Shown one piece after another: positions 35,794-41,120 of a DNA stretch of 64,000 nt; the stretch's first letter is position 1, and every line of letters starts with the position of its first letter. The translations under genes and the position numbers were made by a program. The notes under the pieces were generated by a model that had not been told where the DNA came from, did no database searches, and was given only the letters and a program-made list of their open reading frames with translations. This DNA comes from Thermoplasmatota archaeon (GTDB lineage Archaea; Thermoplasmatota; Poseidoniia; Poseidoniales; Thalassarchaeaceae): positions 20,572 to 84,571 of the forward strand of contig JAZAAK010000014.1 of NCBI GenBank assembly GCA_036138175.1, written 5' to 3'.

Positions 35794-38667
35794 ATGGTAT
35801 ACGATTCGGCGGAAATCGAGACGCGCTGGCAGGCTCGATGGCGTGACGCCCGCGTATTCGATGCAGAAGTAGACTATTCTCGTGAGAAATTCTACTGCCT
35901 TGAGATGTTTCCATATCCATCTGGCTACATGCACATGGGCCACGTAAGAAATTACTCGATTGGCGATGCCATGGCTCGATTCCAGCGTTTGATGGGAAAG
36001 AATGTCCTTTATCCGATGGGATACGACTCATTTGGAATGCCCGCCGAGAATGCTGCCAAGAAGGAAGGAGGTCATCCTCATAGCGTCACTGAGAGAAATA
36101 TCGAGATGATTAGAGCCGATCAGGAGAGAATGGGATATTCATACGACTGGAGGCGAATGTTTGCGACTTCTACACCGGAATATTATCGCTGGAATCAAGA
36201 ATTATTCCTTCGATTCAACGAGGCGGGTTTGGTAGAAAGGAGATTCGCACCAGTCAATTGGTGCGATGATTGTGATACAGTACTTGCAAATGAGCAAGTC
36301 AAGAATAATCGTTGTTGGCGTTGCGGTCTCGAGGTAGTTCAGAAGGATATGGCGCAGTGGTTCTTGCGCATGACAAAGTATGCTGACGAATTATTGGATG
36401 AATTAGACCACATTGAATTTCCAGAGAACGTCAAAGCGATGCAGCGAAACTGGATTGGCCGTTCACATGGTGCCCACATAGAATTCCCTGTGATAGGAGA
36501 TGTCGATGGTGAATCAGCTAGCATTGGTGCATTTACAACCCGTCCAGATACAATTTTCGGAGTCACTTTCGTTACTCTATCCCCTGAACATCCCCTATGT
36601 GAGCCACTAGTAAGCGGAACCGAATACGAACAGGCTTGGAGAGATTTAGCAGAGGAATGCGCACGAATGACTGAATTTGAGCGAATCAATATGCTGAAAG
36701 AAAAGAAAGGAGTTCCTCTTGGTAGATTTGCAACTAATCCAATCACTGGAGAAGAAGTGCCAATTTTTGCTGGTAATTTTGTTGTTGCAAGTTATGGAAC
36801 CGGTGCTGTGATGGCAGTTCCAGGACACGATCAGCGAGATTACGACTTCGCCAAAAAATACGGACTTGAAATCAAACCTGTTCTATCAAGGAATGAGGGT
36901 GGTGAAGGAGTTGAGGAGAATCCAGTATTCGATGGATTAGGATGGATGGTCAACTCAACCATAGAAGGATTCGATGGTCTATTCGGTAATGATGCAAAGA
37001 CTACGGTAATTTCAGCCTTAGAAGAAAAAGGAGCGGGCCACGGTTCCACTGAATATCGGCTAAAGGATTGGTTACTGAGCCGCCAGCGCTTCTGGGGAAC
37101 TCCAATTCCAATGTTACATTGTGATTCTTGTGGAGTAGTTCCTGTACCCTACGAACAACTACCCGTAGAGCTGCCTTTGGATGTGACTTTTAGTTGGGAA
37201 GAGAGTGGTAATCCACTGGCTCGCAGTGAATCCTTCCTTACTACAACTTGTCCGCAGTGCAACGGTGCTGCACGCAGAGAGACCGATACAATGGATACAT
37301 TCTATGATTCATCTTGGTACTTTATGAGATTCGTCGATTCATCAAATGATTCAGCCCCATTCGATCGTGAAGCAGTAGATTACTGGATGAATGGAGGTGT
37401 TGATTTGTACATTGGCGGTATTGAACACGCCGTCATGCATCTTCTGTATGCTCGATTCTTCACAAAGGCTACTCGCGACCTAGGTATGAATGAGGTCAGC
37501 GAGCCATTCGGGCGCTTAGTCTGTCAAGGGATGCTCAACGCACCCGCGCCATTCTGTGTAGATTGTAATACTGAGTATCACATAGATAATTTTGGAGGAG
37601 ATTGCCCCAATTGTGGACAAGGATTGGGTTCACGTTCTGCCAAGATGAGCAAGAGTCTAGGCAATACTGTGAGCCCAGGAGAAATGGTAGACCGATTTGG
37701 TGCTGACACTGTCCGTCTGTTCATTCTCTTCGGTGCCAACCCAGAGGCAGGAATGGATTGGTCTGACAATGCTGTAATTGCAAATCACAAGCAAGTTTGT
37801 TCAATAATTGACGCCTTCAATCACGGAATTTCCCTTTCAGACTCTCCCGGTCCGATGGATTCCTGGTTACTGGCTCGCCTTAGGGCCAATCAGGATCGTT
37901 GGCGAGAGTGTATGGAAGCAGTAAGCCTCCGAGAAGGAGTCATGGCAAGTCACTTCGAGATGTTATCTGATTGGCATTGGTATCTACGAAGAGGAGGGGC
38001 GGATAGGGACACTGCGCGCCAATATCTTCGCGGATGGGCGCCAATGTTGGCGCCAGCAACCCCGCATATCGCAGAAGAATTCTGGTCAGAACTTTCGATG
38101 GGCGAAGCATCCGATATGTTGGCGACACATGAAATGAAGTTCTACTCGGGTGAGGAAAAAGATGCTAGTATTCTTGCTAGAGAATCTTACTTACGTGGAG
38201 TTATTGAATCTGCCCGTAACCTAAGGGGGCTAGCAGAACGCCACTCTGATGCGGAAATTTCAGGAGTTGTAATTCAAACCGCGCCATCTTGGAAGGTTGA
38301 GTTATCGCGTGAAGCGGTAAATTTGGCAAGTGAAGATTTTGATTTCAAAGCAAAAGGCCAAGATCATCTGAAGTCGATGGCGATTTTCGATAATGAAGCC
38401 TTGAGGGGAGAAATATTCCAAACTTGGATGGCCTTGACTATGGGGTCGAAGAAGAAAAGAGGCCGAATACACACCTGGGCCGAAGGCGAGAAAGAATTGA
38501 TATTGAGCGGCCTTGATGAAAGCGAAGTAATCAATTCTGCTGCGGACTTTATCGCGGCTGTTTTGGAAGTCAATTCTGTTGTTGCATATCCGGTTGGCGA
38601 AGGTGAAGATATTGGAGGAAAGGCACGCTTCGCTTTCCCATTGGAGCCAGGTATCGCCTTTGTGTGA
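35794..38667 (+). CDS. leuS: Leucyl-tRNA synthetase (archaeal/eukaryotic type)
   Basis: HIGH-region PYPSGYMHMGHVRNY and KMSKSLGN. 957 aa. Confidence 0.9.
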   Translation: MVYDSAEIETRWQARWRDARVFDAEVDYSREKFYCLEMFPYPSGYMHMGHVRNYSIGDAMARFQRLMGKNVLYPMGYDSFGMPAENAAKKEGGHPHSVTERNIEMIRADQERMGYSYDWRRMFATSTPEYYRWNQELFLRFNEAGLVERRFAPVNWCDDCDTVLANEQVKNNRCWRCGLEVVQKDMAQWFLRMTKYADELLDELDHIEFPENVKAMQRNWIGRSHGAHIEFPVIGDVDGESASIGAFTTRPDTIFGVTFVTLSPEHPLCEPLVSGTEYEQAWRDLAEECARMTEFERINMLKEKKGVPLGRFATNPITGEEVPIFAGNFVVASYGTGAVMAVPGHDQRDYDFAKKYGLEIKPVLSRNEGGEGVEENPVFDGLGWMVNSTIEGFDGLFGNDAKTTVISALEEKGAGHGSTEYRLKDWLLSRQRFWGTPIPMLHCDSCGVVPVPYEQLPVELPLDVTFSWEESGNPLARSESFLTTTCPQCNGAARRETDTMDTFYDSSWYFMRFVDSSNDSAPFDREAVDYWMNGGVDLYIGGIEHAVMHLLYARFFTKATRDLGMNEVSEPFGRLVCQGMLNAPAPFCVDCNTEYHIDNFGGDCPNCGQGLGSRSAKMSKSLGNTVSPGEMVDRFGADTVRLFILFGANPEAGMDWSDNAVIANHKQVCSIIDAFNHGISLSDSPGPMDSWLLARLRANQDRWRECMEAVSLREGVMASHFEMLSDWHWYLRRGGADRDTARQYLRGWAPMLAPATPHIAEEFWSELSMGEASDMLATHEMKFYSGEEKDASILARESYLRGVIESARNLRGLAERHSDAEISGVVIQTAPSWKVELSREAVNLASEDFDFKAKGQDHLKSMAIFDNEALRGEIFQTWMALTMGSKKKRGRIHTWAEGEKELILSGLDESEVINSAADFIAAVLEVNSVVAYPVGEGEDIGGKARFAFPLEPGIAFV

Positions 38668-39035
38668 GAGTGTTAGAGATGGGCTCTCAGTACACCGTTC
38701 TCATCGATGGTTTTTGTCCGGTTTGTACTGGCTGGGCGGCTTTCATTAACAAGCGAGATTCATCAAATCGATTCTCGGTTGTGGCCCAAGAGACCAATGA
38801 GGGGGAACAAGTTCTAAGCAATCTTCCGGAAAAAATGAGAGAACTTGATTCAGTGTTTCTAATCGATGAATCTGGGAAATGGCATGCTCAATCTTCAGCA
38901 GTTATTCGCATTCTTCTTGGCCTTGGTTTCCCCTATAATTTTGGGGCAATCATTTGGTTCGTTCCGAGCCCCATACGTAATTTTGCTTACGACTTATATG
39001 CTCGTAATCGAAACAGAAACTCCAGTAATTCATGA
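38664..39035 (+). CDS. DCC1-like thiol-disulfide oxidoreductase (DUF393)
   Basis: TVLIDGFCPVCTGWAAFINKRD, a CxxC near the N-terminus characteristic of DUF393/DCC. Confidence 0.7.
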   Translation: MRVLEMGSQYTVLIDGFCPVCTGWAAFINKRDSSNRFSVVAQETNEGEQVLSNLPEKMRELDSVFLIDESGKWHAQSSAVIRILLGLGFPYNFGAIIWFVPSPIRNFAYDLYARNRNRNSSNS

Positions 39036-39095
39036 TTTGAAATCGGGCTTCTTTAGCGCGAGGGTTCATGGACGTCCGACATCTCGCAAGTCTCG

Positions 39096-40151
39096 TTGAG
39101 CGAGAATAAGGAAGGTGGAGGCCGCCGCAGAAGGCGTCGGTCTCGAAGGAAGCCGACCAATGGTGCCGATTCTAGGCCATGGTCACAAGGCGATCCCGAT
39201 GCTGTTGAGCAAGCCTTGGCACGTTTCAATCAGTCACCACCTCCGATGGGAATGCCTGAATCAATCGATCCCCCTCCACAAGAAAGACAATTGAAGTGGA
39301 GAACTAATGCAGTTCCAAAAAATATCCAAAGGAAGGTAGGAGACATTGTCTGTAAACCTGGAGAATTTGGCTTTCTTCCGGAAGAAAGAGTAGATGAGAT
39401 TAGAGGACAAATAGGCCATCTTCCAATAACCATAGAACAAGCACTTTCGCTTCGCGGTGCCCTGAACCAAGAAAAGAGTGTTCATTCACACGGACGCTTG
39501 ATGCGAAATGCAAACCAATTACGAAGACGATACGATAAGGGCGAGGGAGTACTGACTCTTTCCCAACGATTTGATGCGCCTCCAGTCAATACATTCAGAG
39601 CGATATTAAGCGGCCGAGGATGGTCAAAGAATCGAATCAAAGAGACTCTGAAAAATCCGGATAGAATGAATGAACGTGACCAAGATGAGTTCGCTAAAGC
39701 GGAAGAAGCCGATAAGGTCAGTTCAGTCAATCAGTCCGATACTCAGACGGCCGCTGAGGTTTTCGAAGACATACTATGTGCACACTTTGATTCCCTAGAC
39801 ATTCGTTTTCGAAGACAGGAGGATTTACTTCGTGAGCAGAAAGAATCTGAAGGCCGAGCGGTAGTTACCCCTGACCTACTGTTGCTTGATGATGTCAGAA
39901 TCAATGGAGTTCCTTGTGCCTGGATTGATGCTAAGCACTTCTATGGAGCGGACCTAAGATTCCCTCGAAAGAAGACTCAGAAACAGGTTGACCGATACGT
40001 CAAGGAATATGGCCAGGGAGCAATTGTGTATAGACACGGATTTACTGGTTCTTTAGTTCAAAGAGGTGCAATTTTACTCGATGCTAGCCCTCTAGATTTG
40101 ACTCCACTTGATGAGTTCCACGAAAAGCGAGCTGGCGGCTCACATTCATGA
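39096..40151 (+). CDS. TPD-domain protein (CDIN1/C15orf41-like) with an Arg-rich N-terminus and a C-terminal putative PD-(D/E)XK nuclease fold
   Basis: VVTPDLLLLDDVRINGVPCAWIDAKHFYG contains the eponymous T-P-D motif followed by D-x-K (IDAK) of restriction-endonuclease-like folds. N-terminal GGGRRRRRRSRRK. Confidence 0.5.
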   Translation: MSENKEGGGRRRRRRSRRKPTNGADSRPWSQGDPDAVEQALARFNQSPPPMGMPESIDPPPQERQLKWRTNAVPKNIQRKVGDIVCKPGEFGFLPEERVDEIRGQIGHLPITIEQALSLRGALNQEKSVHSHGRLMRNANQLRRRYDKGEGVLTLSQRFDAPPVNTFRAILSGRGWSKNRIKETLKNPDRMNERDQDEFAKAEEADKVSSVNQSDTQTAAEVFEDILCAHFDSLDIRFRRQEDLLREQKESEGRAVVTPDLLLLDDVRINGVPCAWIDAKHFYGADLRFPRKKTQKQVDRYVKEYGQGAIVYRHGFTGSLVQRGAILLDASPLDLTPLDEFHEKRAGGSHS

Positions 40152-41120
40152 TAGTGGCCCGACTTTAGTTAGAGTAACATCCAACCCTTCTTCGGTTAAT
40201 TCCGACAATAAATTCTCTAGGGAAATATCCTTTGAAAGATCTCGCGGAACAATGGCAATACTTTCTCCTAGCATACACAACAAAACCGATGTTTCTGAAT
40301 CTAAACCGGCTCTTAGCGAGGCGTTTTTTCCTTTCTCTACCAATTCTGAACGAGATGCATCATCACTCAGCCCAGATTGTTTTGAAAATGCCTCTGCAGA
40401 GTTGAGAAGTTCGCCCCATCGAGAATTATCCCAAAGCCCATCAGAAAGCAGGTCCATTTGTTTTCTTCCTGCCTGTGTAATCGACTGTTTCCAGTCATCA
40501 TCGTCAATATATTCCGATGTGTGTCTTCCGGGGTTTGCCCGCCAAGCTAAAACTACAGGAATCGATTCTGTCCAACCTTCGGAACGACCAGGTCCATTCA
40601 ATAGATCAGGGCCCGAATAGGGAGAGCCTGGACTCAATCTGCGCTCTACTCCTCCAGCGGCTAGTGCAGTAACATCTCCGAGCCCGGTTGAATTCTGCCT
40701 CTCAACCATATGAGCGATAGCAAGAGATCTTCGCAAACTCTCCTCATGGGGTAATCCGAGGGCTCTTTGGAAAGCAGAGGCGGCGGCAATTGCGCCGGCG
40801 GCCGACATTCCAAATCCTTGTGATGATGGTAATTTGTTTCTAATCGCGATTTCCCAACTATAGTCTAAAATCGCCGAAATTTCCTCACTCAGCAGGCCTA
40901 AAACCTGCTGGAACATCTTTGAATCGCCATTTCCATCTAGCAGTTTTACTTCTAGGGAATAATCGCCTAAGTCCCCTCTAGCAATGACTTCTGCTCCATC
41001 ATTCAGGCACAACCCAGCGCCCAGACTACCTTGCTTGATGGGGTCCTCATCCATGTCTTCGACTGTGAACAGTAGTGTGACGTGACCCCCGCAGGTGCCT
41101 CTACCCAAGACCGCAGTCAT
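40146..41120 (-). CDS. GHMP-family kinase, possibly pantoate kinase-like
   Basis: GHMP ATP-binding motif LPSSQGFGMSAAGAIAAASA. An N-terminal GGHVTLLF resembles the pantoate-kinase PGHITGFF motif, but the specific assignment is weak. Confidence 0.6.
   Translation of the reverse strand: MTAVLGRGTCGGHVTLLFTVEDMDEDPIKQGSLGAGLCLNDGAEVIARGDLGDYSLEVKLLDGNGDSKMFQQVLGLLSEEISAILDYSWEIAIRNKLPSSQGFGMSAAGAIAAASAFQRALGLPHEESLRRSLAIAHMVERQNSTGLGDVTALAAGGVERRLSPGSPYSGPDLLNGPGRSEGWTESIPVVLAWRANPGRHTSEYIDDDDWKQSITQAGRKQMDLLSDGLWDNSRWGELLNSAEAFSKQSGLSDDASRSELVEKGKNASLRAGLDSETSVLLCMLGESIAIVPRDLSKDISLENLLSELTEEGLDVTLTKVGPLS

What the first reader, a model, noticed from the sequence alone, without database searches (positions are those of the whole stretch)
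39096..40151. Archaeal TPD/CDIN1-like putative nuclease with a poly-Arg N-terminus
The C-terminal region contains VVTPDLLLLDD...WIDAKHFYG. This is the Thr-Pro-Asp motif that names the TPD family (human CDIN1/C15orf41) followed by a D-x-K, which together form a PD-(D/E)XK restriction-endonuclease-like catalytic core. The N-terminus is strongly basic (GGGRRRRRRSRRK), suggesting nucleic-acid binding. The gene sits between a DCC thiol oxidoreductase and the ribosomal/RNAP block. The function of this family is unknown in archaea and only indirectly known in humans (congenital dyserythropoietic anaemia I).
Basis: partly seen in the sequence, partly recalled or inferred. Interest (0 to 1): 0.55.

Follow-up and report, generated by a model that had tools for sequence, protein, structure and literature searches.

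The report
Archaeal CDIN1-family nuclease gene
This gene from a marine planktonic archaeon encodes a well-conserved relative of human CDIN1, the nuclease mutated in a rare inherited anaemia; it belongs to a family already known to occur in these archaea, so it is a sound but largely ordinary annotation with a few new details.

Summary
ORF 39096-40151 (+, 351 aa, TTG start) matches Pfam TPD/PF14811 at 70 bits against a cutoff of 27. A profile of 79 homologs aligns to human CDIN1 over both domains (hhalign 98.7%, E=2.7e-16). The catalytic residues line up: E224=E166, D260=D196, D278=E214, K280=K216, and Q297-x3-Y301=Q232/Y236. All are invariant or nearly so. The AlphaFold2 model (pLDDT 93) places them on the canonical PD-(D/E)XK elements. 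Residues 1-30, the Arg-rich tail, are disordered, and the tail is present in all MGIIb orthologs examined that have a complete 5' end.

The window comes from Marine Group II archaea (Poseidoniales). The gene evolves as slowly as LeuRS and ribosomal proteins S4 and S13, and it is syntenic in about 78 of 80 species.

The family is already annotated by NCBI. Its presence in Euryarchaeota was published in 2020, and human CDIN1 was shown in July 2026 to be a Mg-dependent, 3'-end-dependent RNA exonuclease. The most likely function here is a Codanin-free, metal-dependent nuclease that probably acts on RNA, with the basic tail helping to hold substrate.

New details: a 13-nt upstream element with a variable uORF and a conserved TTG start, and a very close relationship to marine protist CDIN1.

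Verdict: new member of a known kind; modest interest.

The parts
39096..40151 (+). CDS of the CDIN1/TPD-family protein (351 aa, TTG start, TGA stop).
   Evidence: ORF list. Pfam PF14811 at 70 bits. 899 homologs found, the best 120 listed all carrying PF14811. Orthologs in 80 of 80 Poseidoniales loci.
39096..39185 (+). Disordered Arg/Lys-rich N-terminal tail (residues 1-30: LSENKEGGGRRRRRRSRRKPTNGADSRPWS, read as M at the start).
   Evidence: pLDDT 49-68 over residues 1-30 against >90 afterwards. 9 R and 2 K, pI about 12. An R/K-rich tail is present in every ortholog locus with a complete 5' end.
39186..39710 (+). Mostly helical N-terminal domain (residues 31-205). Residues 110-205 align to the human CDIN1 N-domain. 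R168 aligns with human R101 and K186 with human R126, both mutated as predicted nucleic-acid-binding residues in the human study.
   Evidence: AF2 helices 34-45, 75-85, 96-106, 113-137, 139-147, 152-159, 163-173, 178-186 and 193-205, plus a short strand at 63-66. hhalign to human residues 34-150. Representative hits cover the query from about residue 65. No Pfam family of its own.
39735..40139 (+). PD-(D/E)XK nuclease core (residues 214-348): alpha(E224)-beta-alpha-beta(D260)-beta(D278,K280)-alpha(Q297,Y301)-beta-beta-alpha.
   Evidence: AF2 models with pLDDT 93.1 and 94.7. Pfam TPD over residues 193-323. The top PDB fold hits are nucleases, most of them restriction-endonuclease-like, but the scores are weak.
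39765..39767 (+). Motif I glutamate E224, aligned with human E166, a modelled metal ligand.
   Evidence: Invariant in 79 diverse sequences. Aligned to human E166. Coordinates checked.
39867..39875 (+). Motif II, T258-P259-D260, aligned with human T194-P195-D196.
   Evidence: Invariant. BLASTP and hhalign both align it to human TPD. Human D196A/E214A is inactive.
39927..39935 (+). Motif III, D278-A-K280, aligned with human E214-S-K216.
   Evidence: K280 is invariant and position 278 is always D or E. Aligned to the human residues.
39984..39998 (+). Q297-V-D-R-Y301, a QxxxY motif on the helix after motif III, aligned with human Q232...Y236.
   Evidence: Y301 is invariant and Q297 is conserved in at least 90% of sequences. 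Human Q232 and Y236 contact RNA in the published AF3/MD model. The resemblance to RecB/Cas4 motif IV is from my own knowledge.
39058..39071 (+). Conserved upstream element GCGAGGGTTCATGG. The G-GTTCATG core sits 27-28 nt before the TTG start.
   Evidence: Present in 79 of 79 ortholog loci that have upstream sequence. Not enriched elsewhere. No conserved RNA fold.
39068..39109 (+). A 13-codon upstream ORF (MDVRHLASLVERE*) that starts at the ATG of the element and overlaps the TTG start, out of frame with the main ORF.
   Evidence: In other lineages the same ATG is either in frame and fused to the ORF or closed after 3 or 7 codons.

Best explanation
The gene encodes a stand-alone archaeal ortholog of CDIN1 (C15orf41): a two-domain, divalent-metal-dependent PD-(D/E)XK phosphodiesterase. 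A helical N-domain and the nuclease C-domain form a cleft. E224, D260 and D278 bind Mg2+ or Mn2+, K280 activates or positions the attacking water, and T258, Q297 and Y301 hold the scissile strand. [quoted passage not shown] Archaea have no Codanin-1. In humans that partner supplies a positively charged 'feeder' surface. I infer that the conserved, disordered Arg-rich tail (residues 1-30) provides the equivalent non-specific nucleic-acid grip in cis. The gene behaves as a slowly evolving housekeeping gene of Poseidoniales and appears to be kept at low or controlled expression (conserved TTG start behind a conserved upstream element and uORF). What is shown: family membership, conservation of the catalytic residues, a confident fold with the right element order, the conserved tail, synteny, and the level of constraint. 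What is inferred: RNA rather than DNA specificity, exonuclease polarity, the role of the tail, and the expression control.
For: Pfam TPD at 70 bits against a cutoff of 27. hhalign of a 79-sequence profile to human CDIN1 gives 98.7% probability, E=2.7e-16, over 208 columns spanning both domains. The human sequence was recalled from memory and validated against 17 numbered residues in the paper. D206, E224, T258, P259, D260, W276, K280, Y301, G306 and G308 are invariant at 25-85% identity. The TPD-x16-17-W[IL][DE]xK-x~15-QxxxY signature occurs in nearly all full-length representatives. The AF2 models have pLDDT 93.1 (pTM 0.88) and 94.7, with the residues on the canonical alpha-beta-beta-beta-alpha-beta elements. 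The fold matches giant-virus TPD/CDIN1 proteins with TM up to 0.84. The top PDB hits for the C-domain are nucleases: DdmD, PspGI, BbvCI, Bax1, R2 RLE, AgeI, Hef and XPF. The profile's only PDB sequence hit is T7 endonuclease I, aligned in register on E...TPD. Human CDIN1 is an RNA-specific, 3'-end-dependent, Mg/Mn-dependent nuclease, and D196A/E214A kills its activity. T194, K216, Q232 and Y236 contact RNA in the published model, and the Codanin-1 CC domain acts as a basic 'feeder'. Independent support for RNA comes from protist relatives fused to PPR repeats and to an RNA-cap guanine-N2 methyltransferase domain. The basic tail is conserved in all orthologs with a complete 5' end. TPD's median identity of 70.2% is close to LeuRS at 71.0% and S4 at 71.1%, and well above RpoD at 56.2%. 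There is no defence-system signature.
Against: No biochemistry exists for any archaeal member. Substrate specificity is transferred from a protein only about 19-27% identical. Foldseek against solved structures gives no hit at E<=1e-3, with TM 0.33-0.38, so the fold-level link to PD-(D/E)XK is qualitative. Human CDIN1 alone is a poor enzyme and needs Codanin-1 for robust activity. An archaeal partner may therefore exist that I did not find. The residues that form the human Codanin-1 interface are not conserved (N146->A205, A160->T218, D171->A229). The PPR Pfam hits fall below the curated cutoffs. Basic tails in the protist homologs could simply be nuclear-localisation signals.
Confidence: 0.6

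Rival explanations
1. It is a structure-specific DNA endonuclease, like a Holliday-junction resolvase or T7 endonuclease I, used in recombination or repair. This was the original prediction for C15orf41.
For: The only PDB sequence hit of the family profile is T7 endonuclease I, a junction resolvase, aligned in register on E...TPD. 'Putative endodeoxyribonuclease I' scores probability 0.97 in the viral fold search. The top PDB fold hits are DNA nucleases. Earlier literature proposed Hjc-like function. Human CDIN1 does bind DNA.
Against: Two independent studies found no DNase activity for human CDIN1 on plasmids, linear DNA, flaps, forks or Holliday junctions. The T7 endonuclease I hit is marginal (E=0.03). 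The domain fusions in relatives are to RNA-related modules. No recombination or repair genes neighbour the gene in MGII.
Confidence: 0.2
2. It is a defence or mobile-element nuclease (restriction-like) rather than a housekeeping enzyme.
For: PD-(D/E)XK domains are common in restriction and defence systems. The top fold hits include restriction enzymes and DdmD. Homologs occur in giant viruses. An MGIIb-type copy sits on a virus-like contig.
Against: There is no PADLOC hit. The gene lies at a fixed syntenic position between LeuRS and the PoK/RpoD block in about 78 of 80 species genomes. Its sequence constraint equals that of LeuRS and ribosomal proteins. It has no methyltransferase, helicase or other partner gene. 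No close copy occurs in the viral contig collection.
Confidence: 0.05
3. It is a nuclease-fold protein that works mainly as a nucleic-acid-binding or scaffold subunit and needs an unidentified archaeal partner. On its own it is catalytically weak or silent, as human CDIN1 largely is without Codanin-1.
For: Human CDIN1 alone makes only a single 2-nt cut, and only at a 25-fold or greater excess of protein over substrate. An earlier study found no activity at all. The conserved helical N-domain and the MGII-specific residues 31-65 could be an interaction surface.
Against: All four catalytic residues plus Q and Y are invariant across archaea, protists and viruses, which implies that catalysis itself is under selection. 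No conserved partner gene appears in the neighbourhood beyond LeuRS and PoK, and neither of those is a plausible partner.
Confidence: 0.15

Closest known systems
[quoted passage not shown]
   Same: It has the same two-domain architecture, a helical N-domain followed by a PD-(D/E)XK C-domain, alignable over 208 columns. The catalytic residues correspond (E166/D196/E214/K216 to E224/D260/D278/K280), as do the RNA-contacting T194/Q232/Y236 (T258/Q297/Y301), the predicted nucleic-acid-binding R101/R126 (R168/K186), and the hydrophobic L178 (I236).
   Different: Identity is only about 19-27%. Motif III is D-x-K here rather than E-x-K. The archaeal protein has about 75 extra N-terminal residues, including a 30-residue Arg-rich disordered tail. 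The Codanin-1 interface residues are not conserved, and archaea are not known to have Codanin-1. The human disease position Y94 corresponds to A161.
Marine protist CDIN1 proteins (diatoms such as Cylindrotheca closterium and Bacillariaceae, MMETSP transcripts, Phytophthora)
   Same: These are the closest non-archaeal relatives, at 35-49% identity over both domains, with nuclease-domain exons up to 58-65% identical in one spliced gene. They share the same motif set, and many also carry K/R-rich N-terminal extensions.
   Different: The protist proteins are often much longer, with Stc1 zinc-finger, PPR or cap-methyltransferase fusions, and their genes have introns. The archaeal gene is compact and sits in a conserved prokaryotic gene neighbourhood.
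Giant-virus TPD/CDIN1 proteins (Powai lake megavirus, Acanthamoeba polyphaga mimivirus, A0A8F8SNR0)
   Same: The full-length fold matches (Foldseek E=7.5e-26, TM 0.73/0.84, 30% identity). The core is the same, at about 270-300 aa.
   Different: The viral proteins start directly at the conserved core, with no basic tail.
RecB/Cas4-type and T7 endonuclease I-type PD-(D/E)XK nucleases
   Same: Motifs I (E), II (D) and III ((D/E)xK) fall on the alpha1, beta2 and beta3 elements, followed by a QxxxY on the next helix. T7 endonuclease I even shares a 'TPD' at motif II.
   Different: There is no significant sequence or fold score to any solved member. There is no Fe-S cluster cysteine set as in Cas4. 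The N-domain is unique to the family. The one characterised member cuts RNA, not DNA.

Membership tests
Pfam TPD (PF14811) / CDIN1 family | Score above the Pfam gathering threshold for PF14811 | tested here: met
   70 bits against a cutoff of 27, E=2.3e-19, residues 193-323. The C-domain alone scores 72.7 bits.
Pfam TPD (PF14811) / CDIN1 family | The Thr-Pro-Asp motif followed by W-[IL]-[DE]-x-K | tested here: met
   T258-P-D260 and W276-I-D-A-K280. These are invariant across 79 diverse members.
Pfam TPD (PF14811) / CDIN1 family | Homology to human CDIN1 that extends into the N-terminal helical domain (full-length orthology, not only the nuclease domain) | tested here: met
   hhalign 98.7%, E=2.7e-16, archaeal 110-323 against human 34-258.
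Pfam TPD (PF14811) / CDIN1 family | Association with Codanin-1 (CDAN1) | not testable with these tools
   Only part of the genome is in the window. The literature reports Codanin-1 in animals and a few protists, and reports C15orf41, but not Codanin-1, in Euryarchaeota. The human interface residues N146, A160 and D171 are not conserved.
Pfam TPD (PF14811) / CDIN1 family | Mg/Mn-dependent RNA 3'-exonuclease activity | not testable with these tools
   This is a biochemical property, shown only for the human protein.
PD-(D/E)XK phosphodiesterase superfamily | Motifs I (E/D), II (D) and III ((D/E)xK) conserved and placed on alpha1, the N-terminus of beta2, and beta3 of an alpha-beta-beta-beta-alpha-beta core | tested here: met
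   E224 lies on helix 214-233, D260 immediately before strand 261-269, and D278/K280 on strand 272-280, followed by helix 288-305 and strand 308-312.
PD-(D/E)XK phosphodiesterase superfamily | Significant structural similarity to a solved PD-(D/E)XK nuclease | tested here: inconclusive
   Nucleases dominate the top hits (DdmD E=7e-3, probability 0.85; PspGI; BbvCI; Bax1), but none reaches E<=1e-3 and TM is 0.33-0.38. The profile against PDB sequences finds only T7 endonuclease I at E=0.031.
PD-(D/E)XK phosphodiesterase superfamily | Catalytic side chains clustered around a metal site in three dimensions | not testable with these tools
   Structure prediction returns no coordinates. The published human AF3/MD model has E166, D196 and E214 coordinating Mg2+.
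RecB/Cas4-like nuclease subgroup | Motif IV, QxxxY, on the helix after motif III | tested here: met
   Q297-V-D-R-Y301. Y301 is invariant and Q297 is conserved in at least 90% of sequences. Defining this motif as RecB-type rests on my own knowledge.
RecB/Cas4-like nuclease subgroup | Detectable sequence or profile similarity to RecB, Cas4, AddB or lambda-exonuclease families | tested here: not met
   No Pfam hit other than TPD at E<=10. No such PDB sequence hit. The only trace is a weak viral 'RecB family' fold hit at E=0.04.
Known anti-phage defence nucleases (PADLOC) | Match to a defence-system protein model | tested here: not met
   0 families at E<=1.

The most novel reading that the evidence does not exclude
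Poseidoniales may be the only archaea with CDIN1, having exchanged it by horizontal transfer with marine protists or their giant viruses. Supporting points are its up to 49-65% identity to a spliced eukaryotic gene against about 19% to human, and an MGIIb-type copy found fused to a RING-like domain on a virus-like contig. In the archaeon the enzyme would then have become a Codanin-independent, essential RNA-end-processing nuclease, for example for R-loop or RNA:DNA-hybrid removal or for rRNA or tRNA 3' trimming. Its Arg-rich tail would replace the Codanin-1 'feeder', and its synthesis would be throttled by a dedicated uORF and TTG re-initiation device. This would make it a minimal, partner-free model for the still structurally unsolved human disease enzyme.
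Probability: 0.2. Interest if true: 0.55.

Novelty: new member of a known kind. Interest (0 to 1): 0.3.

Why it matters
CDIN1 has no experimental structure, and its cellular substrate is unknown. The human enzyme is hard to study because it depends on the large, flexible Codanin-1 scaffold. A compact archaeal ortholog that keeps every catalytic and RNA-contacting residue, folds confidently in silico and evidently works without Codanin-1 would be a practical target for crystallography and enzymology. It could also show what the ancestral, partner-free activity of the family is. For marine microbiology, it marks a slowly evolving gene, apparently shared across Poseidoniales, whose role in RNA or DNA metabolism is uncharacterised. 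Since the family, its superfamily assignment and its presence in Euryarchaeota are all published, the finding refines the picture rather than changing it.

Tried and rejected
1. Direct sequence search of the PDB with the protein found nothing relevant. With the family profile, the only hit was T7 endonuclease I at E=0.03. No CDIN1 structure is deposited.
2. Foldseek against the PDB gave no hit at E<=1e-3, either with the full-length model or with the isolated C-domain. I therefore do not claim a statistically supported fold match.
3. NCBIfam has no model for the protein, PADLOC gives no hit, and the N-domain alone has no Pfam hit even at E<=10.
4. Cluster-member look-ups gave no organism names for ten diverse representatives.
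5. I considered a functional link to the ribosomal/RNAP block and rejected it. In the 48-52%-identical lineage (P0122) the RpoD block is replaced by QRPTase and PPS genes, while LeuRS and PoK adjacency persist. Synteny within one order is weak functional evidence anyway.
6. I considered the upstream ATG as the true start of the protein and rejected that for this window. It is out of frame here (28-nt spacing), and in other lineages it is closed by stop codons.
7. I considered a conserved RNA structure around the upstream element. RNAalifold found none, and Rfam found nothing in the whole window.
8. I considered the upstream element as a general MGII promoter or RBS signal. It is not enriched elsewhere in 941 kb of related loci or in the window.
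9. A scan of the viral contig collection for MGII-type copies found none.
10. The first tree script timed out. The repeat NJ tree is unrooted in effect, because human sits on a very long branch. It cannot give the direction of any transfer, and the deep nodes have under 50% support.
Full report
**Observation.** It begins at TTG, the first possible start codon after the upstream stop. The quoted sequence features are all present: the Arg-rich N-terminus (residues 1-30, 39096-39185), TPD (39867-39875) and WIDAK (39921-39935). The tail has 9 Arg and 2 Lys in 30 residues, with pI about 12 against 6.8 for the rest of the protein.

The neighbours are as follows:
- LeuRS, 35794-38667, + strand.
- A DCC1-like thiol-disulfide oxidoreductase, 38664-39035, + strand, overlapping the LeuRS stop by 4 nt.
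- The gene itself.
- A convergent GHMP-kinase gene with pantoate-kinase-like hits, 40146-41120, - strand. Its 3' end overlaps the TPD gene by 6 nt.
- RpoD, S11, S4 and S13, all on the - strand.

**Organism.** The closest homologs and 80 of 80 fetched genome loci come from Marine Group II archaea (Poseidoniales, family Thalassarchaeaceae, also called MGIIb). One record is labelled Chloroflexota but carries the same archaeal synteny, so it is presumably a binning error.

**Family assignment.** Pfam TPD (PF14811) matches at 70 bits against a gathering cutoff of 27 (E=2.3e-19, residues 193-323). An exhaustive search of 1.84 billion cluster representatives found 1,140 clusters at E<=1e-3. The typical hit aligns to query residues about 65-335, so both the helical N-domain and the nuclease domain are conserved.

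Nearly all full-length representatives share the signature TPD-x16-17-W-[IL]-[DE]-x-K-x~15-Q-x-x-[KR]-Y. In an alignment of 79 sequences at 25-85% identity, the invariant columns are D206, E224, T258, P259, D260, W276, K280, Y301, G306 and G308. Q297 and R168 are conserved in at least 90%.

**Mapping to the characterised human enzyme.** I recalled the human CDIN1 sequence from memory. I accepted it only after all 17 numbered residues mentioned in PMC13463051 fell on the right amino acid. It is 276 aa rather than 281, so a few C-terminal residues are missing.

BLASTP aligns TPD to TPD and D-A-K to E-S-K. The 79-sequence profile aligns to the human protein with 98.7% probability, E=2.7e-16, over archaeal 110-323 and human 34-258. 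My column-by-column reading of that alignment gives:

| Archaeal | Human | Note |
|---|---|---|
| E224 | E166 | catalytic |
| D260 | D196 | catalytic (TPD) |
| D278 | E214 | catalytic |
| K280 | K216 | catalytic |
| Q297 | Q232 | RNA contact in the published model |
| Y301 | Y236 | RNA contact in the published model |
| T258 | T194 | RNA contact in the published model |
| R168 | R101 | predicted nucleic-acid-binding residue |
| K186 | R126 | predicted nucleic-acid-binding residue |
| D206 | D147 | invariant in the family |
| I236 | L178 | disease position, hydrophobic in both |
| A161 | Y94 | disease position, not conserved |

The human residues that contact Codanin-1 are not conserved (N146->A205, A160->T218, D171->A229).

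**What is known about the human enzyme.** PMC13463051 (July 2026) shows that human CDIN1 is a Mg/Mn/Zn-stimulated nuclease specific for RNA. [quoted passage not shown] It has no DNase activity on many substrates, and D196A/E214A inactivates it.

CDIN1 alone is weak. The positively charged coiled-coil domain of Codanin-1 acts as a substrate 'feeder'. No experimental CDIN1 structure exists, which agrees with my empty PDB searches.

**Structure.** AlphaFold2 with the 79-sequence alignment gives mean pLDDT 93.1 and pTM 0.88. Residues 1-30 are disordered and everything from residue 31 on is confident. The C-domain has this order of elements:
- helix 214-233, carrying E224
- strand 238-240
- helix 241-252
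- strand 261-269, with D260 at its N-edge
- strand 272-280, carrying D278 and K280
- helix 288-305, carrying Q297 and Y301
- strands 308-312 and 325-329
- helix 336-348

This is the canonical PD-(D/E)XK core order with motifs I-III in register. The isolated C-domain model reaches pLDDT 94.7.

Foldseek against the viral library finds giant-virus TPD/CDIN1 proteins strongly (E=7.5e-26, TM up to 0.84). Below them is a tail of weak hits enriched in endonuclease I, RecB-family, Mrr-like and restriction nucleases.

Against solved structures nothing reaches E<=1e-3. With the C-domain the top hits are DdmD (E=7e-3), PspGI, BbvCI and Bax1, with R2 RLE, AgeI, Hef and XPF further down. These are all nucleases, and most of them I know to be restriction-endonuclease-like folds. 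The family profile's only PDB sequence hit is T7 endonuclease I (E=0.031), aligned in register on the motif-I Glu and on its own 'TPD'.

I therefore treat the superfamily assignment as well supported by the motif pattern, the topology and the human mutagenesis. The fold scores corroborate it only qualitatively. Coordinates are not returned, so I could not measure how closely the catalytic side chains cluster.

**Evidence bearing on substrate.** Independently of the human work, long relatives carry RNA-related fusions. P0258 has a solid RNA-cap guanine-N2 methyltransferase domain (60 bits against a cutoff of 22). The Phytophthora-type proteins P0160 and P0178 have PPR repeats, though these hits are below the curated cutoffs. 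P0136 and P0141 have an Stc1 zinc-finger.

The Q-x-x-x-Y motif resembles motif IV of RecB/Cas4-type nucleases, which are mostly end-dependent enzymes. That statement rests on my own knowledge, and no profile similarity to those families was found.

**Constraint and context.** In 80 species-level loci the order LeuRS > (DCC) > TPD < PoK < RpoD < S11 < S4 < S13 holds in 72-79 cases. DCC is detected in only 58.

Median identities to the window proteins among the divergent loci (L022-L080) are:

| Protein | Median identity |
|---|---|
| S13 | 72.9% |
| S4 | 71.1% |
| LeuRS | 71.0% |
| TPD | 70.2% |
| RpoD | 56.2% |
| PoK | 54.2% |
| DCC | 43.9% |

This is a housekeeping level of constraint. Together with the absence of any PADLOC hit, it argues against a defence or mobile role.

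In a deeper lineage (P0122) LeuRS is 41% identical, PoK 33% and TPD 51%. The order LeuRS > x > TPD < PoK persists there, but the RpoD block is replaced by QRPTase and phosphopantothenate-synthetase genes. The ribosomal adjacency is therefore not a conserved association.

**The tail.** Every ortholog locus with a complete 5' end encodes an R/K-rich stretch before the first conserved helix, typically 9-16 R+K in 26-38 residues. Giant-virus-like and many short homologs lack it. Many long protist homologs have K/R-rich extensions that may be nuclear-localisation signals.

My inference is that in the archaeon the tail supplies non-specific nucleic-acid affinity in cis, the job done in trans by the basic surface of Codanin-1 in humans.

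**An unexpected cis-element.** Exactly 27 nt upstream of the TTG (28 nt in the window's clade) lies an element with the core G-GTTCATG. In the window it is GCGAGGGTTCATGG at 39058-39071. It is present in 79 of 79 loci with upstream sequence, although the flanking DNA is otherwise unalignable.

Its ATG is used in three different ways:
- In roughly half of the loci it is in frame and fused to the ORF, adding nine poorly conserved residues.
- In the window's clade it is out of frame, giving a 13-codon uORF (39068-39109) that overlaps the TTG.
- In several other clades it is closed by a stop after 3 or 7 codons.

The TTG codon itself is kept in about 66 of 80 loci. The G-rich part (GAGGG, GGTGGG or GGTGAG) looks Shine-Dalgarno-like. 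In loci without DCC, AT-rich TATA-like boxes lie 20-35 nt upstream of the ATG.

There is no conserved RNA fold and no Rfam match. The element is not enriched elsewhere. Two readings remain open: a ribosome-binding site plus uORF that couples translation to a weak TTG start, or a protein-binding or transcription-start element.

**Relationships.** The nearest non-archaeal relatives are marine protist CDIN1s: MMETSP transcripts, the diatoms Cylindrotheca and Bacillariaceae, and Phytophthora.

On trimmed columns the window protein's identities are:

| Compared with | Identity |
|---|---|
| P0122 | 52% |
| P0123 | 49% |
| diatoms | about 40% |
| giant-virus-like proteins | about 33% |
| human | 19% |

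P0123 is a spliced eukaryotic gene, and its nuclease-domain exons are 58-65% identical to the archaeal protein. A rough NJ tree keeps MGIIb together (200/200 when P0121 is included), but the deeper nodes are weak (78-86 of 200), so it cannot give the direction of any transfer.

P0121 is an MGIIb-type CDIN1 domain fused to a Cys-rich RING-like region. It sits on an ORFan-rich contig with another RING-finger gene. No close copy exists in the viral contig collection.

**What was already known.** NCBI names the orthologs 'TPD domain-containing protein'. [quoted passage not shown] The PD-(D/E)XK prediction dates from 2013, as cited, and the enzymatic activity from 2026.

**Verdict.** The gene is a new member of a known kind. 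The new details are:
- the residue-level mapping to the human enzyme
- a confident two-domain model
- the conserved basic tail and its proposed feeder-like role
- housekeeping-level sequence constraint
- the upstream element with its uORF and conserved TTG start
- the unusually close tie to protist CDIN1

Interest is modest (0.3). The main value is as a tractable, partner-free model for an enzyme of medical interest that has no solved structure.

Noticed in passing
window 39058-39109 (element GCGAGGGTTCATGG at 39058-71; uORF 39068-39109; TTG start at 39096): A 13-nt element with the core G-GTTCATG is invariant at a fixed 27-28 nt upstream of the TPD start in 79 of 79 MGIIb loci, even though the flanks are unalignable. 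Its ATG is fused in frame, out of frame (13-codon overlapping uORF, as here), or closed after 3 or 7 codons, depending on lineage. The TTG start codon is itself conserved. There is no conserved RNA fold and no enrichment elsewhere. Either translational coupling or a transcription-start or regulator site is possible.
   Followed up: partly
L084:2140-3828 (protein P0121, 562 aa; Logan contig SRR24302422_29880, 42 kb): A CDIN1 domain 60% identical to the window protein, grouping with MGIIb in 200 of 200 bootstraps, is fused to a Cys-rich RING-like N-terminal region that contains an internal duplicated segment. It lies on an ORFan-rich contig with a separate RING-finger gene and a P-loop protein. 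This looks like capture of the archaeal-type gene by a eukaryote-associated virus or element.
   Followed up: partly
L088:90-1347 (protein P0123; NCBI assembly GCA_003568945.1, contig BDIP01004891.1): A spliced eukaryotic CDIN1 gene, with HSPs in three frames separated by gaps of about 65 and 260 nt. Its nuclease-domain exons are 58-65% identical to the MGIIb protein, far closer than animal CDIN1. This hints at horizontal exchange between marine eukaryotes and Poseidoniales. The organism was not identified.
   Followed up: partly
window 40146-41120 (- strand): A GHMP-kinase gene with pantoate-kinase-like NCBIfam hits far below the cutoffs (72 bits against 380). It converges on the TPD gene and overlaps it by 6 nt. 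The pairing persists in a lineage where the kinase is only 33% identical and sits next to phosphopantothenate synthetase and QRPTase, which supports a role in the archaeal CoA pathway.
   Followed up: partly
window 38664-39035 (+ strand), compared with L001-L080: The DCC1-like thiol-disulfide oxidoreductase gene between LeuRS and TPD overlaps the LeuRS stop by 4 nt. It is detected in only 58 of 80 related loci and is the least conserved gene of the block (median 44% identity), so it is a variable insert in an otherwise fixed arrangement.
   Followed up: no
proteins P0160, P0178, P0258, P0136, P0141 (relatives from the representative search): Long, apparently eukaryotic CDIN1 relatives carry N-terminal fusions: PPR repeats (Phytophthora ramorum type), an RNA-cap guanine-N2 methyltransferase domain, and Stc1 zinc-finger domains. 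I did not come across these architectures in the CDIN1 papers I read, and they point to RNA-linked roles.
   Followed up: partly
L044 (PBEM01000001.1): A contig labelled 'Chloroflexota bacterium' carries the full archaeal LeuRS-DCC-TPD-PoK-RpoD-S11-S4-S13 block at 72% TPD identity. This is probably a binning or labelling error in the public record.
   Followed up: no
window 1-64000: No Rfam family reaches its gathering score anywhere in the 64-kb window.
   Followed up: no
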